Origin: Bacteroidales bacterium
GTDB taxonomy: Bacteria > Bacteroidota > Bacteroidia > Bacteroidales > VadinHA17
Assembly: GCA_025454795.1 (NCBI GenBank)
Contig: JALONT010000012.1
Span: 6,569-70,568, forward strand
Reading direction: 5' to 3'
Length of the DNA: 64,000 bases
The position numbers were made by a program, and so were the translations under genes. Positions within the stretch are counted from its first letter, which is position 1. Each line of letters starts with the position of its first letter. The notes beneath the pieces are model-generated. The model was given only the letters and a program-made list of their open reading frames with translations, was not told the DNA's origin and ran no database searches. Shown here in pieces: positions 16,556 to 63,670 of this stretch.

Positions 16556-16661
16556 TCTCTGTGTATCTCTGTGACTTCTTAGTGTAACTCTGTGTGAGTT
16601 CTTCAACGTTTTATTACACAGAGAGCCACAGAGAAGGCACAGAGAGTTACACAGAGAAGAA
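16556..16661. repeat. inverted heptamer-array cassette: 3x CTCTGTG, 22-nt centre between core heptamers, 4x CACAGAG; fills the whole hflX/asd convergent spacer
   Basis: CTCTGTG at 16557, 16567 and 16588. CACAGAG at 16617, 16627, 16638 and 16650. Positions 16580-16597 pair with 16637-16654 (about 16/18). Confidence 0.8.
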
Positions 16662-17743: not shown

Positions 17744-20362
17744 ATGAAAAAAGTTATTTTGCTGGCTGCGCTGATGCCATTTATGGCATCCGGCCAGATA
17801 ATTGAAAATTTCGAATCCGGTAATCTTAATAATTGGATTCAGAGCATTCCAGGACACTGGCAGGCAGATACTGCAGTCAGTCTTAACGGACGTTTTTCAC
17901 TGCATCATGTTTTTGATAATCAGTCAGGCGGTACAGATTGTGCCGGAGTGCCACTGACTGATCTGCATCCCGGGGAGGGAGCAACCCGATGGTCATTCCT
18001 GATAAGACATGGCTGTGATCCCTCGTCATCAAACAACTGGGCCCTGTTCCTTATGTCTGACCTTGATCCTGTTTCTTTTAGCGGAGGATCCCCTGTTAAT
18101 GGTTATACTCTGGGCGTAAATCTTACAGGTTATGATGACACGCTAAGACTCTGGAAAATTAAAAACGGGTCTCCTGTTAAAGTGGTGACATGTCCCTTAA
18201 ACTGGCAGACCCGTATAGGAACAGGTGATGCCGTAAAAATAATTACAGACAGAAGTGAATCAGGTATCTGGACCATTTCGGTTTATGATACCGGGAATAA
18301 TCTTATTTCAGCGGCAACAGGAAATGACAGTGAATTGTTCTCCTCATCCTGGCTCATCCTGAATTACCGTTACACCTCCACCCGCGACATGCTCCTGTGG
18401 TTTGATGATCTGGTGATTGAAGGTGTTTATTATGAAGATAAGTTACCTCCTGAAGTGATTGACTGCCGGATACATGGGAAGAATTCAGCAGAGATATTCT
18501 TTAATGAAGAGCCATCAGAAGCAATAGTGCAGATATCAAATTTCTCTGTCAACGGGAACATGATACCTGAAAGAATTGAAAAGATAAGTCCGTTAAATAT
18601 CAGGTTGATTTTCGAAAATCATTTTAATAACAAAGTAACTAATTATCTGTTATTCAGACATCTATGTGACAATAACGGGAATTGTGAAAGTAATGTCGAA
18701 ATAAAATTTATACCTGTCTGGGCAGAACCCGGCGATGTTATAATTTCTGAAATAATGGCAGATCCGTTTCCTGAGGTTGAACTCCCGGGTAAAGAATATC
18801 TTGAAATATTAAACAGGACACAGTTCTCTTTTGATCTGAAAAAGTGGATACTGGCATCGGAGAACCAGAGTTCTGTTTTCCCTTCTTTGACAATTAATCC
18901 TGGTCAGTTTTTAATTATCTGCCCTGTTGCAGATACATCATTTTTCTCAGGTTATGGTAAGGTTTCCGGATTAAAATCTTTTCCGGCGCTTACCGATGAG
19001 GGCAGGATGATTTATCTGACTGACTCTCTGGGAGATCTGATACATGGATTGGAATATTCTTCAGACTGGTATGGAGATAATCTGAAAGAGACAGGCGGAT
19101 GGTCTCTTGAAATGATCGATCCAAATTATCCTTTTTTCATGGAGAGTAACTGGGCTGCTTCATTATCAAGAACGGGAGGCACGCCCGGAAAATCAAATTC
19201 AGTCTTGTCGACAGAACAGGACAATGTATTTTCAGGGATCATGAATGTATTTCCGGAAGACAGTGTCACGATCATCCTCATATTATCAGAACCGGTAATA
19301 GGCTTTACAGAATATACTGACAGAATTTCAATAGGAGAGGAGCGGATCAGTTCAGTCAGCTCAATAGATCCTTTGTACAGACAGTTCAGCATTTCGACTG
19401 TCAGTCCTTTGAAGCGTGATGTCGTATATTCACTTCTGATATCAGGAGATGTGACAGATTTTGCAGGAAACTCAATCTTAAGAAATAGCTTCAGATTTGG
19501 AATGCCGGCAACAACCGTAAAAGGTGATGTGGTATTTAACGAGCTGCTGTTCAATCCGTTCCCTGATGATCCGGATTATGTTGAGCTTTTTAACTGTTCG
19601 GACAAAGTCATCGATGCTTCCCGTATTTACCTCGCATCAGTTGATCCGCGAACCGGCAGTACTTCTGAAGCAAAAAAGATTACAAATGAACACAGGTGCA
19701 TTATCCCAGGTTCATTTTATGTTGTTACCACTGACCCTGGCAAAGTCATAAGCAGGTATACAGCATCAGACCCTGAGGCTATCTTCATCACTGCGTCTCT
19801 CCCTTCAATGCCTGATGACAGGGGGCATCTGCTCCTTCTGAACAGAGAACTTGATATTATCGATGAAGTCTTATATGACGACGATATGCATTTTCCCCTG
19901 CTTGCTGATAAAGAAGGTATCTCACTCGAAAAGGTCAGGCCGGCGATCTCATCGAATGAAAAAAGCAACTGGCATACTGCTTCTGAATCTTCCGGATGGG
20001 GAACTCCCGGAACAGAAAATTCTGTTTTCAGCTCCATTGCACAGGTCAATGACCTGATATTACTTTCTTCAGGGAAGATATCTCCTGATAATGATGGTTA
20101 TGAGGATGTTCTTGTCATCGACATAAACCTTACAGTCACTGGTAATGTTGTTTCAGTTACAGTTTTTGACGAATCAGGAAATTATATACGGAAGCTGGCC
20201 GAGAATCATTTTGCAGGGAGCAACGCTTCATTTATCTGGGATGGTACAGCAGCTGACGGTTCCCTGGTAAACAGGGGCATTTATATTCTTTTTATAGAGA
20301 TGTATAACGACCACGGCCAAACAAAAAGATGGAAGAAAGTTTGTGCAGTAATTAGAGAATAG
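17744..20362 (+). CDS. secreted lamin-tail-domain (LTD) containing protein with an Ig-like C-terminal domain
   Basis: Signal peptide and two LTD-like segments (ISEIMADPFP..., VFNELLFNPFPDDPDYVELFN). The C-terminal ISPDNDGYEDVLVI... resembles FlgD-Ig / CHU_C-type sorting domains. Confidence 0.65.
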   Translation: MKKVILLAALMPFMASGQIIENFESGNLNNWIQSIPGHWQADTAVSLNGRFSLHHVFDNQSGGTDCAGVPLTDLHPGEGATRWSFLIRHGCDPSSSNNWALFLMSDLDPVSFSGGSPVNGYTLGVNLTGYDDTLRLWKIKNGSPVKVVTCPLNWQTRIGTGDAVKIITDRSESGIWTISVYDTGNNLISAATGNDSELFSSSWLILNYRYTSTRDMLLWFDDLVIEGVYYEDKLPPEVIDCRIHGKNSAEIFFNEEPSEAIVQISNFSVNGNMIPERIEKISPLNIRLIFENHFNNKVTNYLLFRHLCDNNGNCESNVEIKFIPVWAEPGDVIISEIMADPFPEVELPGKEYLEILNRTQFSFDLKKWILASENQSSVFPSLTINPGQFLIICPVADTSFFSGYGKVSGLKSFPALTDEGRMIYLTDSLGDLIHGLEYSSDWYGDNLKETGGWSLEMIDPNYPFFMESNWAASLSRTGGTPGKSNSVLSTEQDNVFSGIMNVFPEDSVTIILILSEPVIGFTEYTDRISIGEERISSVSSIDPLYRQFSISTVSPLKRDVVYSLLISGDVTDFAGNSILRNSFRFGMPATTVKGDVVFNELLFNPFPDDPDYVELFNCSDKVIDASRIYLASVDPRTGSTSEAKKITNEHRCIIPGSFYVVTTDPGKVISRYTASDPEAIFITASLPSMPDDRGHLLLLNRELDIIDEVLYDDDMHFPLLADKEGISLEKVRPAISSNEKSNWHTASESSGWGTPGTENSVFSSIAQVNDLILLSSGKISPDNDGYEDVLVIDINLTVTGNVVSVTVFDESGNYIRKLAENHFAGSNASFIWDGTAADGSLVNRGIYILFIEMYNDHGQTKRWKKVCAVIRE

Positions 20363-20368
20363 TTTTTC

Positions 20369-20849
20369 TACCACAAAGGATCACAAAGGATAACTCAAAG
20401 AAGCACAAAGGAAAAATCAAAAAACCTTGACATATGAATAATGAAGAAATTTTCAAGAAAATATTGGACTGTTCTTTTTTGGTTCATACTGCGTTAGGAC
20501 CTGGGTTGCTAGAAAGTGCTTATACTGAATGCTTGAATTATGAACTTCTGCAATCAGGGTTGAGAGTAGAAAAACAAAAACCATTACCTCTGATTTATAA
20601 AGAAGTGAATCTTGAAGCAGGTTACCGGATAGATTTGTTAGTTGAGGGTTCAATTGTTATTGAAATCAAATTCGTAGAGGCCTTAGCAGATATCCATATG
20701 GCTCAAATACTTACTTATATGAAACTGACAAAATGCAGATTAGGTTTACTGGCAAACTTCAATGTTCTACACTTTAAATCCGGATTTAAAAGGGTAATTA
20801 TTTAATCCTTTGTGTCCCTTCGTGATGTACTTAGTGTCCCTTTGTGGTA
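20369..20849. mobile_element. candidate miniature cassette: GxxExxY gene bracketed by 44-bp imperfect terminal inverted repeats built from CACAAAGG / CCTTTGTG octamers
   Basis: The left repeat (20369-20412) and the reverse complement of the right repeat (20806-20849) have equal length and match at 33/44 positions. The outer 11 nt (TACCACAAAGG) and inner 9 nt (CACAAAGGA) are identical. The cassette occupies the whole convergent spacer. Confidence 0.4.
20434..20805 (+). CDS. GxxExxY protein (PD-(D/E)XK nuclease-fold family)
   Basis: GPGLLESAYTECL contains the eponymous G-x-x-E-x-x-Y, followed by a D...E-x-K-like core (RIDLLVEGSIVIEIK). 123 aa, the typical size. Confidence 0.85.
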   Translation: MNNEEIFKKILDCSFLVHTALGPGLLESAYTECLNYELLQSGLRVEKQKPLPLIYKEVNLEAGYRIDLLVEGSIVIEIKFVEALADIHMAQILTYMKLTKCRLGLLANFNVLHFKSGFKRVII

Positions 20850-20855
20850 AAAAAA

Positions 20856-21671
20856 TCAAAGTGACGATATCATCTCAGTCATGATAGTTGTCATCCGATC
20901 TTCGCTTTTAGCGGCCTCATCAAGAACAGACTGATGAGTTGTGTATTCGATTTTCCCTTCAATTCCAAGATCAGTTATGATACTTACTGCGAAACATGGA
21001 AGGTTCATGTGTCGTGCAATAATCACCTCAGGAGTTGTCGACATTCCTACCGCATCAGCGCCAATGATCCTGAAATATTTGTATTCGGCCGGAGTCTCGA
21101 ATGTAGGACCGCTTGTTGAAAGATAAACCCCTTTATGAACCCTGATCTTATTCTCCTGTGCAATCAACAATGCTTTTTTGATCAGATACCTGTCATATGT
21201 TTCACCCATATCCGGAAACCGGGCTCCGATACGGGCATCGTTAGGGCCGATAAGCGGATTTGGCAGCAGGTTTATATGATCTGTTATTATCATGATATCG
21301 CCTATCTGGAAAGAAGGATTAACACCGCCTGCCGCATTCGAAAGAAAGAGGCATTTTATTCCAAGGTATTTGAGTACTCTCACGGGTAATGCAACCTGCT
21401 CCGGACCATACCCTTCATAGTAATGAAACCGACCCTTCATAGCTACAATTTTCTTTCTTCCGAAATCGCCATAGATCAGCTTTCCGGCATGTCCCTCCAC
21501 AGTTGAGACCGGGAAATTGGGTATATCCTTATAATCGATCTCAATGCTGTTTTCAATTTTTGAAGTCAGTCCTCCAAGACCGGTACCAAGTATTATTCCT
21601 GCATCAGGATTGGTTATTCCTTTTGCTTTAAGAAACTCTGTTGTTTCGTTTATTTTTTCTAACATAGTCAA
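20856..21671 (-). CDS. purine nucleoside phosphorylase (trimeric PNP/MTAP family)
   Basis: GTGLGGL and VGMSTTPEVIIARH motifs. The start is at 21671 or 21665 and overlaps the lpxK 3' end. Confidence 0.9.
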   Translation of the reverse strand: MTMLEKINETTEFLKAKGITNPDAGIILGTGLGGLTSKIENSIEIDYKDIPNFPVSTVEGHAGKLIYGDFGRKKIVAMKGRFHYYEGYGPEQVALPVRVLKYLGIKCLFLSNAAGGVNPSFQIGDIMIITDHINLLPNPLIGPNDARIGARFPDMGETYDRYLIKKALLIAQENKIRVHKGVYLSTSGPTFETPAEYKYFRIIGADAVGMSTTPEVIIARHMNLPCFAVSIITDLGIEGKIEYTTHQSVLDEAAKSEDRMTTIMTEMISSL

Positions 21672-24600: not shown

Positions 24601-25104
24601 ATGAAGAGGGTATTTCTGGGAATCGGGTCAAATCTTGGCAAAAGAAAGAACAATATTCTGGAGGCCGTTGAAAGGATAAGGGAATTAGTTGGACCTGTCA
24701 TTAATTCTTCTTCTATATATGAAACAGAGCCATGGGGGTTCAGGAGCAAGAAATATTTTCTGAATATGGTTATTGAAGTGGAAACAAAACTTAAACCTTC
24801 AGGGCTCCTGGGAAGATTACTGATGATCGAATCTCTTCTTGGAAGAGTCAGAGAAGGGAAGAAGTATACATCAAGGATTATTGATCTTGATATTCTGCTG
24901 TACAATGATAAGGTGCTGGAGAGTAGTGCCCTGGTTATTCCTCATCCCATGATCCGGGAAAGGAAGTTTGTCCTGGTTCCGTTATGTGAAATTGCACCCG
25001 ATATTGTTCATCCAGTAATGAAAAAAACGATTAGCGAATTGCTGAAGGATTGCCAGGATAAAAGCAAGATCAGACCGCACGACCTTACGACCGCAAGACC
25101 TTAA
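24601..25104 (+). CDS. folK: 2-amino-4-hydroxy-6-hydroxymethyldihydropteridine diphosphokinase (HPPK)
   Basis: MKRVFLGIGSNLG start, ETEPWG, IDLDILLY, and PHPMIRERKFVLVPL. The last ~11 codons and the stop lie in the octamer array. Confidence 0.9.
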   Translation: MKRVFLGIGSNLGKRKNNILEAVERIRELVGPVINSSSIYETEPWGFRSKKYFLNMVIEVETKLKPSGLLGRLLMIESLLGRVREGKKYTSRIIDLDILLYNDKVLESSALVIPHPMIRERKFVLVPLCEIAPDIVHPVMKKTISELLKDCQDKSKIRPHDLTTARP

Positions 25105-25235
25105 GACCGCAAGACCGCAAGACTGCAAGACTGCAAGACCGCAAGACTGCAAGACTGCAAGACCGCAAGACTGCAAGACCGCAAGACCTTAAGACCGCAC
25201 GACCGCAAGACCTTAAGACCGCACGACCGCACGAC
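25073..25235. repeat. tandem array of 20 in-phase 8-bp units (GACCGCAA and variants GACTGCAA / GACCTTAA / GACCGCAC / GACCTTAC)
   Basis: Hand-parsed units start at 25073 and recur every 8 nt without any indel. A degenerate 21st unit (GACAATTA) contains the radC stop. The array fills the folK/radC convergent spacer. Confidence 0.95.
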
Positions 25236-27008: not shown

Positions 27009-27139
27009 GTCATTAAAATATTAGAAAGTCCTACTCATAAGGCTTTTCAGTTACGCCCCGTTTTTATGGTGGTCACTGGTCTCCACCCAAATTCAAATTT
27101 AAACTATTCTAAGAAAAAAACAATTATATCTCAATTAAA

Positions 27140-30020: not shown

Positions 30021-30090
30021 CCGCACACCGCATGCCGCAGACCGCATGCCGCAGACCGCATGCCGCAGACCGCATGCCGCATACCGAATT
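30021..30090. repeat. heptamer array, 10 in-phase 7-bp units CCGCAYR (14-bp super-unit CCGCATGCCGCAGA)
   Basis: Units parsed by hand from 30021. Read in the sense of the adjacent minus-strand gene, the array is NNTGCGG x9 starting 4 nt after its TGA. Confidence 0.9.
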
Positions 30091-62164: not shown

Positions 62165-62171
62165 TCAGAAA

Positions 62172-62290
62172 TCGGTATGCGGCATGCGGCACGCGGTTCA
62201 CGGCACAAGGCACTCGGCACACGGAAAAAGAAACACGAAACCCAGGCACCAAGCACCGAGCGCCAAGCAACAAGGACCCAACACCAGAAT
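62172..62290. repeat. 7-bp periodic tract (TATGCGG CATGCGG CACGCGG TTCACGG CACAAGG CACTCGG CACACGG, decaying into A/C-rich heptamers)
   Basis: Units parsed by hand from 62176. The first 18 nt (62172-62189) are the exact reverse complement of 30070-30087. Confidence 0.8.
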
Positions 62291-62317: not shown

Positions 62318-63670
62318 TTGAATATGAATCCTGAAGATTTCAAAGGAGCACCCATCGTAACTGAAATGTCGGTAATTCCGGTTGCGGGTTACGACAGTAT
62401 GTTGCTTAATCTCAGCGGTGCCCACAGCCCCTTTTTTACACGAAACGTTGTTATTCTGAAAGATAGCGCAGGAGACACCGGTGTCAGCGAAGTTCCTGGC
62501 GGAGAGCTTATCCGGCAGGTGCTGGAAGAATCAAAGACTCTTGTAATCAACAAGCCAATAGGTTCTTATAATAATATCCTAAACGAAGTCCGGCAGAGGT
62601 ACAACGACAGGGATTCAGGAGGACGTGGCTTACAGACCTTCGATTTACGCATTACCATTCATGCAATAACAGCATTAGAAGCTTCATTACTGGATCTTCT
62701 CGGCCAGTTTCTTGGTGTTCCTGTTGCTGCATTGCTTGGCACAGGCCAGCAGCGGCAAAAGATGGAAATGCTTGGCTATCTGTTTTATGTTGGCGACCGG
62801 GGGAAAACAGATTTGCCATATTTCAGTGCTTCAAATCAAAAGGATGACTGGTTGAGATTGAGGAGCGAAAGTGCTCTGACCCCGGAAGCAATTGTCCGGC
62901 TGGCAGAAGCAACTCATCAGCGCTATGGCTTTAAAGACTTTAAACTAAAAGGCGGGGTAATGAGCGGCAGCGAAGAAATGAAAGCAATGGTTGCACTTGC
63001 CAACCGCTTCCCGGATGCCAGGATGACTATAGATCCCAATGGCGCATGGTCGCTTGATGAAGCTATACAATTATGTAAGAATAAACATGATGTACTTGCA
63101 TATGTTGAGGACCCCTGTGGTGCAGAAAAGGGCTACTCAGGACGTGAAATAATGGCAGAATTCAGGAGGGCAACAGGATTGCCGACAGCCACAAATATGA
63201 TAGCTACCGATTGGCGTCAGCTGGGACATTCAATTCAGTTGCATGCGGTGGACATTCCCCTGGCCGATCCGCATTTCTGGACAATGCAGGGTGCAGTAAG
63301 AGTTGCACAGATCTGTCACGAATGGGGATTAACATGGGGTTCACATTCCAATAATCATTTTGATATATCGCTTGCAATGATTGTCCATACCGGGGCTGCA
63401 GCTCCCGGCAAAATTACTGCTTTGGACACACACTGGATCTGGCAGGAAGGACGGGAACGCTTAACCAGGGAGCCTCTTAAAATTACTGGAGGAATGATCT
63501 CTGTGCCTGACAAGCCAGGTCTGGGAATTGAAATTGATATGGATCAAATTGAAAAAGCAAATAAACTGTACATGGAAAAAGGACTTGGGGCAAGAGACGA
63601 TGCTGTGGCAATGCGATATCTGATACCGGGATGGAAGTTTGACAATAAACGCCCTTCTCTTGTTCGTTAG
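62318..63670 (+). CDS. gudD: glucarate dehydratase (enolase superfamily)
   Basis: [32 protein letters not shown] closely parallels the E. coli GudD N-terminus. Confidence 0.9.

What the first reader, a model, noticed from the sequence alone, without database searches (positions are those of the whole stretch)
20363..20855. GxxExxY (PD-(D/E)XK) gene carried in a 481-bp cassette with 44-bp octamer-built terminal inverted repeats
Seen directly:
- The 372-bp ORF is the only content of the convergent spacer between the LTD gene (stop at 20362) and pnp (stop at 20856).
- It is flanked by TACCACAAAGGATCACAAAGGATAACTCAAAGAAGCACAAAGGA (20369-20412) and by a sequence of equal length at 20806-20849 in reverse-complement orientation.
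- By my manual alignment the two match at 33/44 positions, with identical outer 11 nt and inner 9 nt.
- A T-run and an A-run extend the complementarity outward.
- Each arm is itself made of three to four CACAAAGG-type octamers.

Inference: this could be a miniature selfish or homing element built around a nuclease-fold gene. Alternatively it could be an RNA whose 5' and 3' ends pair into a long processing stem, analogous to the stems flanking rRNA intervening-sequence ORFs. I am not aware of a described mobility mechanism for GxxExxY genes.
Basis: partly seen in the sequence, partly recalled or inferred. Interest (0 to 1): 0.6.

Follow-up and report, generated by a model that had tools for sequence, protein, structure and literature searches.

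The report
Nuclease gene framed by heptamer arrays
A small nuclease gene of unknown function sits between two mirror-image arrays of a conserved 7-base motif; almost every relative of this gene in several bacterial phyla is framed the same way, which suggests an undescribed kind of selfish gene cassette with its own repeat family.

Summary
Window 20369-20412 and 20806-20849 match as inverted repeats at 33/44 positions (shuffles 24.8±1.1, maximum 28). All five CACAAAGG sites in the 64 kb lie in these arms.

Each arm holds four CACNAAG heptamers spaced 10/12/10 nt, ending in ACCAC plus a T-run or A-run. The ORF is a GxxExxY protein (PF13366/TIGR04256). Its predicted fold is a minimal RecB/Cas4-like PD-(D/E)XK nuclease.

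The frame is family-wide. 49 of 50 distinct relatives carry CRCNRAG arrays. These come from Bacteroidota, Nostoc and Sphingomonas (left arm only seen); a Gemmatirosa copy has them too.

The orthologous pnp|LTD spacer is polymorphic:
- empty;
- filled with the cassette;
- holding only arm-end remnants;
- holding gene-less hairpins;
- holding other small genes with their own array-built inverted repeats.

Gene-less units include internal-deletion derivatives. One Gemmatirosa palindrome has at least 39 copies on each of two ~1-Mb replicons.

Where both neighbours share one orientation, the cassette lies in sense orientation at all 17 independent sites (17:0).

The arms are not terminators. They show no covariation beyond the motif and no G·U bias, so a selected RNA stem is not supported.

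Best reading: an old, vertically inherited copy of a promoterless selfish cassette whose arms are protein-recognition arrays. It resembles REPIN–RAYT systems and rRNA intervening-sequence ORFs. The mechanism is inferred, and I found no description in the literature.

The parts
20363..20369 (+). Outer T-run (TTTTTCT) directly after the LTD stop codon. It is part of the conserved left terminus, T-run + ACCAC.
   Evidence: the same T-run precedes ACCAC in most cassettes
20370..20412 (+). Left arm. Terminal ACCAC, then four heptamers CACAAAG / CACAAAG / CTCAAAG / CACAAAG starting at 20372, 20382, 20394 and 20404 (spacing 10/12/10).
20413..20433 (+). A-rich 21-nt leader between the left arm and the ATG.
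   Evidence: from the end of the innermost heptamer to the ATG is 14-28 nt in the Bacteroidales cassettes
20434..20805 (+). GxxExxY gene (123 aa + TAA). PF13366 / TIGR04256. Carries G24-x-x-E27-x-x-Y30, D67, E77-x-K79 and Q91-x3-Y95.
20806..20848 (+). Right arm, beginning at the base after the stop codon. Four heptamers CTTTGTG / CTTCGTG / CTTAGTG / CTTTGTG starting at 20808, 20818, 20830 and 20840 (spacing 10/12/10), then terminal GTGGT.
20849..20855 (+). Outer A-run (AAAAAAA), abutting the pnp stop codon (TCA at 20856-20858 on +).
16557..16656 (.). Related gene-less palindrome in the hflX/asd convergent spacer: four CTCTGTG-type heptamers (10/12/10), a 22-nt centre, then four CACAGAG heptamers. 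The architecture is the same but the heptamer variant differs and the arm order is reversed.
   Evidence: the CACAGAG variant frames the B. finegoldii GxxExxY gene

Best explanation
Window 20363-20855 is one copy of a widespread two-part module.

Part one is a promoterless gene for a minimal RecB/Cas4-like PD-(D/E)XK nuclease (GxxExxY). Part two is a pair of inverted arrays of a conserved heptamer: CRCNRAG, here CACNAAG, four per arm, one per helical turn, with T-run + ACCAC termini.

I read the module as a selfish cassette that settles in sense orientation inside host transcription units and is expressed by read-through. The arms are sequence-specific recognition arrays that define the element's ends. 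The protein that reads them is most likely the encoded nuclease itself, acting on DNA. The arms are not a selected RNA stem and not terminators.

Gene-less palindromes are non-autonomous derivatives. In some genomes they multiply like REPINs.

At this particular locus the cassette is an old resident. It was already in the pnp|LTD spacer of the common ancestor of this Bacteroidales group. It has been inherited vertically under purifying selection, and in many relatives it has been lost, reduced to end remnants, or replaced.

Shown here: the anatomy, the family-wide association, the polymorphism, the deletion derivatives, the orientation rule and the pattern of constraint.

Inferred, not shown: that the nuclease binds or cuts the arrays, and how copies are made.
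For: 1. Specific association.
- 49 of 50 distinct GxxExxY genes fetched have 4-17 CRCNRAG heptamers within 130-150 nt of the gene. About 0.5 would be expected by chance from the motif's degeneracy (my arithmetic, not a tool result).
- These come from Bacteroidota, Nostoc and Sphingomonas (left arm only); a Gemmatirosa copy lies between two complete palindromes. A Treponema copy has a simple 11-bp inverted repeat instead.
- The window holds only two such arrays in 64 kb.

2. Fixed geometry.
- Spacing is 10/12/10 in both arms.
- The right arm abuts the stop codon in every Bacteroidales cassette.
- From the end of the innermost left heptamer to the ATG is 14-28 nt.

3. Pattern of constraint among 17 orthologous cassettes.
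- Four-fold degenerate sites are saturated (pairwise identity 0.35).
- CAC and AAG of several heptamers, above all the one nearest the gene on the left and the right-arm units, are invariant in a motif-blind MAFFT alignment; position N and the spacers drift.

4. No pairing signal beyond the motif.
- Within-cassette versus between-cassette complementarity is 0.44 vs 0.53 at N, and 0.435 vs 0.396 in spacers (p=0.15).
- The RNAalifold covariation term is -0.49 kcal/mol.
- Sense-strand G·U versus A·C mismatches are 6:7 in the cores and 18:20 at N plus spacers.

5. Signs of a mobile element.
- The orthologous spacer is empty (at most about 30 nt), filled, or holds only 'TTTTACCACAAAG' or 'CCTTTGTGGTAAAAAAA' end remnants, or gene-less hairpins.
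- Gene-less units in L005 and L006 keep the first ~30-55 nt and the last ~20 nt of the ORF.
- One palindrome type lies nested in the loop of another.
- A Gemmatirosa palindrome has at least 39 places on each of two ~1-Mb replicons, where the best-matching replicon has three GxxExxY matches.
- The prevailing heptamer variant differs between protein clades.

6. Orientation rule.
- Of 23 independent sites, 17 are '++', 0 are '--', 2 are convergent and 2 divergent. A one-sided binomial probability for 17:0 is 2^-17.
- Sites lie between housekeeping genes: trpE|trpG, fabD|fabG, radA|FAD-dependent protein.
- No sigma-70-type promoter match occurs in 20200-21000.

7. The protein looks like an active nuclease.
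- E27, D67 and K79 are invariant; E77, Q91 and Y95 are at least 90% conserved across 80 diverse members.
- The AlphaFold2 model has pLDDT 95.
- The nearest solved folds are Cas4 SSO0001, lambda exonuclease, LHK-Exo and ACE1.

8. Long residence at this site.
- GxxExxY distances track pnp distances (r=0.67) and LTD distances (r=0.84).
- One identical protein found on 20 contigs lies at this site in all 10 places shown.
Against: - No binding or cleavage by the protein is shown.
- A 123-aa hydrolytic nuclease has no known strand-transfer activity, so a copying mechanism is missing.
- No target-site duplication was seen.
- No pair of near-identical cassettes at different sites was found, so recent mobility is unproven in this lineage.
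- In this Bacteroidales group the module behaves like a stable single-copy gene. That would also fit a host-beneficial function.
- PF05635 proteins are not nucleases, yet they are framed by arrays in the same way. The frame may therefore serve something other than nuclease recognition.
- The arms do pair in the RNA minimum-free-energy fold (z=-2.1).
- Strict sense orientation is also what an RNA-level function would need.
- The high-copy evidence comes from one genome (Gemmatirosa), and the tool capped the count.
- The heptamer census used a regular expression, so part of the apparent 'conservation' is built in. The motif-blind alignment is the independent support.
Confidence: 0.5

Rival explanations
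1. RNA-level element, like an rRNA intervening sequence. The cassette is transcribed by read-through. Its two arms pair into a long interrupted stem, which is cut by RNase III or insulates the insert. This would make insertion into operons and untranslated regions harmless and set the level of GxxExxY mRNA.
For: - The RNA minimum-free-energy and centroid folds of 20355-20865 pair the arms (-116.7 vs -105.4 kcal/mol in shuffles, z=-2.1).
- The cassette lies in sense orientation at 17 of 17 co-directional sites and sits between cistrons.
- The hairpin lacks a trailing T-run, so it should not terminate transcription.
- PF05635 ORFs, known from RNase III-excised 23S rRNA intervening sequences (PMC4990558), occupy the same spacer with the same ORF-in-a-frame design.
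- This reading does not exclude the DNA-level one.
Against: - The conserved consensus pairing is only a chain of 3-bp helices (CAC/GUG, AAG/CUU). The alignment fold energy is -14.6 kcal/mol with a covariation term of -0.49.
- N and spacer positions pair no better within a cassette than between cassettes.
- Sense-strand G·U mismatches are not favoured over A·C.
- Sequence, rather than structure, is conserved across phyla.
- High-copy, near-perfect gene-less palindromes and nested palindromes call for a DNA-level copying process.
Confidence: 0.25
2. The arrays are host repeats with a host function, comparable to REP elements (nucleoid protein sites, mRNA stabilisers). The GxxExxY gene is a passenger that lodges in their loops, or a host gene regulated by them. 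The protein does not act on the arrays.
For: - Gene-less palindromes exist independently of the gene (window 16557-16656; Gemmatirosa).
- Different small genes (PF05635, DUF559) sit in other array-built frames.
- This genome is rich in short-period intergenic arrays.
- The cassette is inherited vertically under purifying selection.
Against: - The same CRCNRAG motif and geometry travel with the gene across four phyla with unrelated host factors.
- Each small-gene family seen here has its own array type.
- The gene-less units in L005 and L006 are demonstrably deletion derivatives of gene-bearing cassettes. That reverses the proposed direction of origin.
- The right arm abuts the stop codon with single-base regularity.
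Confidence: 0.15
3. Integron-like cassette. The right-arm/A-T-run/left-arm junction is an attC-like recombination site used by an unlinked site-specific recombinase, and the cassettes are promoterless and oriented.
For: - Head-to-tail cassette arrays occur with GTGGTTAAAA..TTTTACCAC junctions.
- Orientation is strict and the genes are promoterless.
- The window has a solitary palindrome in right-arm-then-left-arm order at 16557-16656.
- Different cassettes occupy one site.
Against: - No integrase or recombinase lies next to any array examined. Neighbours are housekeeping genes: dinB-like, lexA-like, trpE/trpG, fabD/fabG.
- In attC sites the structure is conserved and the sequence is not. Here the reverse holds.
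- Tandem units are mostly duplicates of one unit, or deletion derivatives, rather than diverse genes.
Confidence: 0.05
4. The feature is a chance inverted repeat, or an ordinary bidirectional terminator in a convergent spacer.
For: It lies in a convergent spacer, where terminators are expected.
Against: - 33/44 matches against a shuffle maximum of 28.
- The architecture is conserved in dozens of unrelated loci, mostly not convergent.
- The stem is AT-rich and interrupted, preceded by a T-run and followed by an A-run on both strands.
- No terminator-like hit falls in the arms.
Confidence: 0.01

Closest known systems
REPIN-RAYT systems (REP-associated tyrosine transposases and their palindromic repeat doublets; PMC3116915, PMC3337134)
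   Same: - A small, typically single-copy, vertically inherited gene is flanked by inverted copies of a short repeat.
- Gene-less palindromic doublets of the same repeat are dispersed, in some genomes at high copy (Gemmatirosa, at least 39 per ~1 Mb).
- The repeat variant differs between gene lineages.
- The association persists for a long time.
   Different: - The protein is a PD-(D/E)XK (RecB/Cas4-like) hydrolase, not a Y1 HUH transposase.
- The repeat is an array of 3-4 heptamers at helical spacing rather than a single GTAG-tagged hairpin.
- The gene usually lies inside one split palindrome.
- In the window's lineage the copy number appears to be low.
ORF-bearing intervening sequences of 23S rRNA (Leptospira, Coxiella and others; PF05635 'S23p'; PMC4990558)
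   Same: - Similar size (~430-500 nt), with one ~120-aa ORF framed by terminal inverted repeats.
- Inserted in sense orientation in a host transcript.
- Regarded as a selfish element of unknown mobility.
- PF05635 ORFs in array-built frames occupy the very same pnp|LTD spacer in relatives.
   Different: - Not in rRNA.
- A different protein family.
- The arms are motif arrays with about 25% mismatch, rather than a 28-bp near-perfect stem.
- No evidence for RNase III excision, and no covariation.
Free-standing homing endonuclease genes (for example the phage T4 seg and mob genes) — named from my own knowledge, not tested here
   Same: - A small nuclease gene sits alone between conserved genes, co-oriented with them.
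- It is present or absent at the same site among relatives, with decayed and lost copies as in a homing cycle.
   Different: - Homing genes are not framed by inverted repeats, and each recognises a site near its own insertion point.
- Here proteins 70-80% identical sit at unrelated sites.
- Any target would therefore have to be generic, for example the arrays themselves.
MITEs and foldback-type transposons (long inverted termini built of short tandem units; autonomous and deleted copies) — foldback elements named from my own knowledge
   Same: - Terminal inverted repeats are made of short repeated units.
- Internal-deletion derivatives keep both ends.
- Nested insertions occur.
   Different: - No recognisable transposase.
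- No target-site duplication.
- Strict sense orientation relative to host genes.
Integron gene cassettes
   Same: Promoterless, oriented small ORFs. Head-to-tail arrays separated by imperfect palindromes.
   Different: No integrase or attI nearby. The palindrome is conserved in sequence, not in structure.

Membership tests
GxxExxY protein (TIGR04256) / PDDEXK_3 (PF13366) | Profile match above the curated cut-off | tested here: met
   PF13366: 135.9 bits against a cut-off of 22. TIGR04256: 140.1 bits against a cut-off of 35. Both cover the full length.
GxxExxY protein (TIGR04256) / PDDEXK_3 (PF13366) | GxxExxY motif and PD-(D/E)XK catalytic residues | tested here: met
   G24-L-L-E27-S-A-Y30 and D67 ... 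E77-I-K79. G24, E27, Y30, D67 and K79 are invariant and E77 is at least 90% conserved in 80 diverse members. Q91-x3-Y95 is also at least 90% conserved.
GxxExxY protein (TIGR04256) / PDDEXK_3 (PF13366) | Restriction-endonuclease-like fold | tested here: met
   The AlphaFold2 model has pLDDT 95 and pTM 0.88. The best PDB neighbours are Cas4 SSO0001, lambda exonuclease, LHK-Exo and ACE1, with probability 0.9-0.99. The E-values are weak (about 6e-3) and TM-score is about 0.5. No solved structure was found by sequence.
REPIN-RAYT system | The gene is flanked by inverted copies of a repeat that also occurs as dispersed gene-less palindromes | tested here: met
   Flanking. Gene-less copies: window 16557-16656, L089 and L094, and Gemmatirosa with at least 39 places on each of two replicons. 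Copy number in the window's own genome could not be measured.
REPIN-RAYT system | The associated gene is a Y1 (HUH) IS200/IS605-type transposase | tested here: not met
   The only Pfam/NCBIfam hit is PD-(D/E)XK. The window element is therefore not a member of this system, only an analogue.
REPIN-RAYT system | REP hairpin with a conserved 5' GTAG tetranucleotide | tested here: not met
   The termini are T-run + ACCAC / GTGGT + A-run. The arms are heptamer arrays.
23S rRNA intervening sequence element | Located in helix 9, 25 or 45 of a 23S rRNA gene | tested here: not met
   It lies between two protein-coding genes. There is no rRNA in the window or in the 10 related loci scanned.
23S rRNA intervening sequence element | Terminal complementary sequences form a stable stem that RNase III cleaves | tested here: inconclusive
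   The arms pair in the minimum-free-energy fold (z=-2.1). Only 3-bp core helices are conserved, with no covariation and no G·U bias.
Terminal-inverted-repeat transposon / MITE | Terminal inverted repeats | tested here: met
Terminal-inverted-repeat transposon / MITE | Target-site duplication | tested here: inconclusive
   No direct repeat is visible outside the T-run and A-run in the window or its orthologues. Empty sites are too short and too variable to reconstruct the target.
Terminal-inverted-repeat transposon / MITE | Encoded or trans-acting transposase of a known class | tested here: not met
   The ORF has no transposase domain. No transposase lies next to the arrays examined.
Integron cassette | An integrase with attI adjacent to the array, and attC with conserved structure but variable sequence | tested here: not met
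   The neighbours are dinB-like, lexA-like, trp and fab genes. Sequence is conserved while pairing is not.
Free-standing homing endonuclease gene | The nuclease cleaves the empty allele, and the gene is copied by repair | not testable with these tools
   Only the presence/absence polymorphism and co-divergence with the flanks are seen. These fit either homing with co-conversion or vertical descent with losses.
Intrinsic terminator | G+C-rich stem followed by a T-run | tested here: not met
   The scan finds no site in the arms. On both strands the T-run precedes the palindrome and the A-run follows it.

The most novel reading that the evidence does not exclude
GxxExxY proteins form a very large family of unknown function (16,733 clusters at 50% identity). 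They may be the dedicated nucleases of a previously undescribed class of bacterial intragenomic replicators. These replicators would be palindromes built from helically phased CRCNRAG heptamer arrays: a second, mechanistically independent 'REPIN-RAYT-like' partnership, based on a RecB/Cas4-type hydrolase instead of an HUH transposase.

More broadly, GxxExxY, PF05635 (intervening-sequence/Avd-like) and DUF559 genes may share one design: a ~120-aa ORF, inverted arrays of a family-specific short unit, and sense insertion between cistrons. That design would explain the long-unexplained ORF-bearing intervening sequences of rRNA as one special landing site of a general cassette type.
Probability: 0.35. 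Interest if true: 0.85.

Novelty: new variant of a known kind. Interest (0 to 1): 0.7.

Why it matters
GxxExxY/PDDEXK_3 is one of the large protein families with no assigned function. The only survey that lists it records 'Unknown' and 'multiple transfers' (PMC3424549).

A near-universal, geometrically fixed DNA partner gives the family a concrete and testable hypothesis: recognition of CRCNRAG arrays.

If that holds, it adds a second enzyme class to the few known systems in which a single-copy gene maintains a population of short palindromic repeats in bacterial genomes.

It would also connect three things to one cassette design. First, the origin of ORF-bearing rRNA intervening sequences, which has been debated since 1990. 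Second, repeat elements outside the Proteobacteria. Third, the many 'orphan' ~120-aa genes wedged into housekeeping operons such as trpE|trpG and fabD|fabG.

For annotation, the arrays mark the boundaries of an insertion. They also explain why short intergenic spacers differ so much in length between close relatives.

Tried and rejected
- **Rfam.** No family covers the arms, in the window (gathering and E-value modes) or in 10 related loci.
- **Literature.** Searches for 'GxxExxY', PDDEXK_3/PF13366, IVS/S23p, DUF559/four-helix-bundle terms, the arm sequences themselves, and RAYT/REPIN with Bacteroidetes found no description of the association. One query failed on syntax.
- **First AlphaFold2 model.** It used a shallow alignment and was poor (pLDDT 62). 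Its Foldseek hits were meaningless and were discarded. A diverse alignment fixed this.
- **PDB by sequence.** No hit.
- **Phage or plasmid carriage.** 1 relative in 2.9 million viral contigs, and 8 of 72,556 plasmid records, all large and non-mobilizable. Spread on classical mobile replicons is therefore rejected.
- **Recent transposition.** An identical protein on 20 contigs lay at the same locus in all 10 places shown.
- **Integron idea.** No integrase next to the arrays.
- **Terminator idea.** Rejected.
- **Stem covariation.** Custom within-versus-between test, RNAalifold and the G·U versus A·C count were all negative.
- **Inverted partner for the octamer array at 25072-25235.** None found.
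- **Target-site duplication.** None recognisable.
Full report
**1. The observation**

The spacer between the LTD/CHU_C gene (17744-20362, +) and a purine-nucleoside-phosphorylase-family gene (20856-21671, -) holds one ORF, 20434-20805. The outer 11 nt and inner 9 nt are identical. The repeat finder extends the pair to 66 nt at 71% complementarity, taking in a T-run on the left and an A-run on the right.

This is far beyond chance. The best 44-nt inverted repeat in 200 shuffles averaged 24.8 (sd 1.1, maximum 28). The best in 79 other tiles of the window was 29. All five CACAAAGG sites in the 64 kb lie in the arms.

The unit is better described as a heptamer, CACNAAG. There are four per arm, with start-to-start spacing of 10, 12 and 10 nt. 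That amounts to two 22-nt double units, roughly one heptamer per helical turn.

**2. The gene**

The 123-aa product matches PF13366 (E=1e-39) and TIGR04256 'GxxExxY' (E=3.7e-41) over its whole length. In an alignment of 80 diverse members, G24, E27, Y30, D67 and K79 are invariant, and E77, Q91 and Y95 are at least 90% conserved. Together these are the E / D / ExK / QxxxY set that I know from RecB/Cas4-type nucleases (my own knowledge).

An AlphaFold2 model built on that alignment is confident (pLDDT 95). Its nearest solved folds are Cas4 SSO0001, lambda exonuclease, LHK-Exo and the Argonaute-associated Cas4-like ACE1. Probabilities are 0.9-0.99, but E-values are weak (about 6e-3) and TM-score is about 0.5.

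The family is very large: 16,733 clusters at 50% identity with E≤1e-3. The one survey that lists it gives 'Unknown' as its function (PMC3424549).

**3. The frame is a property of the family**

A scan of one genome per species returned 39 loci. Almost every full-length relative shows the same anatomy:
- a T-run, then ACCAC;
- three or four CRCNRAG heptamers;
- a short A-rich leader;
- the ORF;
- the mirror-image array, starting one or two bases after the stop codon and ending in GTGGT plus an A-run.

Among 50 distinct proteins, 49 have 4-17 heptamers in their flanks.

The prevailing heptamer differs between protein clades, and both arms change together:
- CACAAAG in the large Bacteroidales clade and in Ferruginibacter;
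- CACAGAG in Bacteroides finegoldii;
- CGCAGAG in Nostoc, Chryseolinea and Gemmatirosa;
- CACAGGG/CACTGAG and CGCAAAG in others;
- CGCGAAG in Sphingomonas.

A Treponema copy has only a simple 11-bp inverted repeat. No Rfam family matches the arms, and no paper I could find describes them.

**4. What evolves and what does not**

Seventeen cassettes lie at the same pnp|LTD site in different species or samples. Their four-fold degenerate sites are saturated (pairwise identity 0.35) and third codon positions stand at 0.49. Even so, in a motif-blind MAFFT alignment CAC and AAG of several heptamers stay invariant, most fully the one nearest the gene on the left and the units of the right arm, while N and the spacers drift.

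Complementarity between the two arms of one cassette is no higher than between arms of different cassettes. At N it is 0.44 against 0.53. In spacers it is 0.435 against 0.396 (permutation p=0.15).

RNAalifold keeps only the 3-bp core helices, with a covariation term of -0.49 kcal/mol. The few 'both sides changed' cases are mainly the lineage-wide motif switches.

Mismatches that would be G·U in the sense transcript are no more frequent than those that would be A·C: 6 against 7 in the cores, and 18 against 20 at N plus spacers.

What is conserved is therefore a sequence motif in a fixed phase, present in both orientations. It is not a helix. That is the signature of recognition by a protein.

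The arms can still pair. The RNA minimum-free-energy and centroid folds of the window cassette join them (z=-2.1). An RNA role is not excluded, only unsupported.

**5. Presence and absence at the orthologous site**

A metagenome scan with the pnp protein gave 80 syntenic loci. The spacer is highly variable among them:
- essentially empty, at most about 30 nt;
- filled with the GxxExxY cassette, in about 14 of the 80 loci;
- reduced to the pnp-proximal end 'TTTTACCACAAAG', to the LTD-proximal end 'CCTTTGTGGTAAAAAAA', or to a gene-less hairpin of left and right arms;
- occupied by something else.

The 'something else' is informative:
- PF05635 (23S rRNA intervening-sequence protein / four-helix bundle) ORFs framed by inverted tandem hexamer arrays, (GGTTGA/GGTTAA/GGCTGA)n on one side and its complement on the other;
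- DUF559 (Vsr-like nuclease) ORFs framed by inverted arrays of ~50-nt units, each containing a CCCCTCC-N4-GGAGGGG hairpin;
- ORF6N ORFs with no frame.

Filled loci are scattered over the pnp tree. GxxExxY distances track pnp distances (r=0.67) and LTD distances (r=0.84). One exact protein found on 20 contigs lies at this site in all 10 places shown.

The simplest history is an old insertion, inherited vertically, with many independent losses and replacements. Nothing shows a recent gain at this site.

**6. Signs of element behaviour elsewhere**

In tandem arrays next to some genes, units in L005 and L006 keep the first ~30-55 nt and the last ~20 nt of the ORF between intact arms. This is the way MITEs derive from autonomous elements.

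In Gemmatirosa kalamazoonensis the gene lies between two complete, near-perfect palindromes. One such 101-nt palindrome has at least 39 places on each of two ~1-Mb replicons; the tool capped the count. It has none in any other plasmid record. A protein search found three GxxExxY matches on the first of those replicons.

In a 50-kb sample of that replicon, CACAGAG-type palindromes sit in the loops of CGCAGAG-type palindromes at two sites.

The family is almost absent from viral contigs (1 hit) and from plasmids (8 of 72,556 records, all large and non-mobilizable).

**7. Orientation and landing sites**

I clustered the loci by their neighbouring proteins, which gave 23 independent sites. In 17 of them both neighbours are co-oriented with the GxxExxY gene, and in none are both opposed. 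A one-sided binomial probability for 17:0 is 2^-17. Two sites are convergent, including the window's, and two are divergent with the downstream gene co-oriented.

Sites include trpE|trpG, fabD|fabG, radA|FAD-dependent protein, and the region between dinB-like and lexA-like genes. No integrase or transposase is adjacent.

In several loci the left arm begins 2-8 nt after the upstream stop codon, and the A-run ends about 10-20 nt before the next start codon.

The window has no sigma-70-type promoter match and no terminator-like site in the arms. Bacteroidetes promoters are not covered by that scan. By eye, I see no TAnnTTTG in the purine-rich left arm.

The cassette therefore behaves as a promoterless, non-polar insert that depends on host read-through.

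**8. Most likely mechanism**

Shown:
- a conserved gene-plus-arms module with fixed geometry;
- purifying selection on motif cores in both arms;
- deletion derivatives, nesting and, in one genome, high copy number;
- strict sense orientation;
- long vertical residence at this locus, with repeated loss.

Inferred:
- The arms are arrays of binding sites on one face of the DNA, four per end in mirror orientation. They define the element's ends in the way multi-site transposon ends do.
- Gene-less palindromes are maintained or multiplied in trans.

How copies are made is open. A hydrolytic RecB/Cas4-like enzyme could nick or cut at the arrays or at extruded hairpins and leave copying to host repair. 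That could include conversion of gene-less palindromes into gene-bearing ones, using the ~44-nt arms as homology.

I put 0.5 on this DNA-level selfish-module reading, 0.25 on an RNA-level role like that of an intervening sequence (the two are not exclusive), 0.15 on host repeats with a passenger gene, and less on integron-like recombination.

**9. Comparison with what is known**

The module works most like a REPIN-RAYT partnership and looks most like an ORF-bearing rRNA intervening sequence. It is a member of neither. The enzyme is not an HUH transposase, the repeat is not a GTAG hairpin, and the site is not rRNA (see the membership table).

It shares the 'lone nuclease gene between conserved genes, present or absent among relatives' pattern with free-standing homing endonuclease genes. 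However, near-identical proteins at unrelated sites argue against site-specific homing.

It shares array-built inverted termini and deleted derivatives with foldback elements and MITEs, but has no transposase and no target duplication.

**10. Verdict**

The RNA-stem alternative lacks evolutionary support, and the mechanism remains inferred.

I found no prior description. I rate it a new variant of a known kind (nuclease-associated palindromic repeat elements), with interest 0.7.

Limits:
- The window's own genome could not be surveyed beyond 64 kb.
- High-copy evidence comes from a single genome.
- Part of the heptamer census relies on a regular expression.

Noticed in passing
window 16557-16656: A gene-less palindrome fills the hflX/asd convergent spacer. 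It has four CTCTGTG-type heptamers (10/12/10 spacing), a 22-nt centre, then four CACAGAG heptamers. The architecture matches the GxxExxY arms, but in right-arm-then-left-arm order and with the heptamer variant that frames the Bacteroides finegoldii GxxExxY gene (L120).
   Followed up: partly
L057, L059, L067, L087 (the pnp|LTD spacer of relatives); gene-less forms in L041, L050, L051, L070, L074, L088, L099: PF05635 / TIGR02436 (23S rRNA intervening-sequence protein, four-helix bundle) ORFs of ~118 aa are framed by inverted tandem hexamer arrays, (GGTTGA/GGTTAA/GGCTGA)n ... (TCAACC/TTAACC/TTAGCC)n. At least in L059 the right array starts at the stop codon. Gene-less hexamer hairpins occupy the same spacer in other relatives.
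   Followed up: partly
L064, L119 (ORF-bearing); L043, L046, L053, L065, L111 (gene-less): DUF559 (Vsr-like PD-(D/E)XK) ORFs are framed by inverted arrays of ~50-nt units, each containing a CCCCTCC-N4-GGAGGGG hairpin. This is a third small-gene family with its own array-built inverted repeats at the same site.
   Followed up: partly
L040, L073: ORF6N-domain (KilA-N-like) ORFs occupy the same pnp|LTD spacer, with no recognisable inverted arrays.
   Followed up: no
window 25072-25235: About 20 tandem copies of the octamer AAGACCGC (variants AAGACTGC, AAGACCTT) lie in a convergent spacer. They run in one orientation only, and no inverted partner exists in the window.
   Followed up: partly
window 30021-30086 and 62170-62290: There are further short-period intergenic arrays: (CCGCAGA/CCGCATG)n next to a gene end, and a degenerate GGCAC/CCAAGCA-type array upstream of an ORF starting near 62325. 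This genome is unusually rich in 7-8-nt tandem arrays between genes.
   Followed up: no
window 27024-27091 (-): Rfam DUF805 RNA motif (RF03081): 73.6 bits against a gathering score of 51.1.
   Followed up: no
L124 5475-5672 and 18213-18429 (Gemmatirosa kalamazoonensis plasmid 1): Nested palindromes: a CACAGAG-type element sits in the loop of a CGCAGAG-type element, at two separate sites. The composite may itself be a repeated unit.
   Followed up: partly
L005, L008, L015, L016, L022, L029: One recurrent site for GxxExxY cassettes, and for long tandem arrays of gene-less units, is the divergent region between a dinB-like (IMS family) gene and a lexA-like (HTH_3 + Peptidase_S24) gene. This is an SOS-type locus. 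Whether that is more than coincidence is unknown.
   Followed up: no
proteins P0121, P0122, P0124, P0126, P0128 and others: Some family members are ~270-295 aa long with two matched stretches, meaning two GxxExxY matches in one called protein. This hints that the functional unit is at least a dimer.
   Followed up: no
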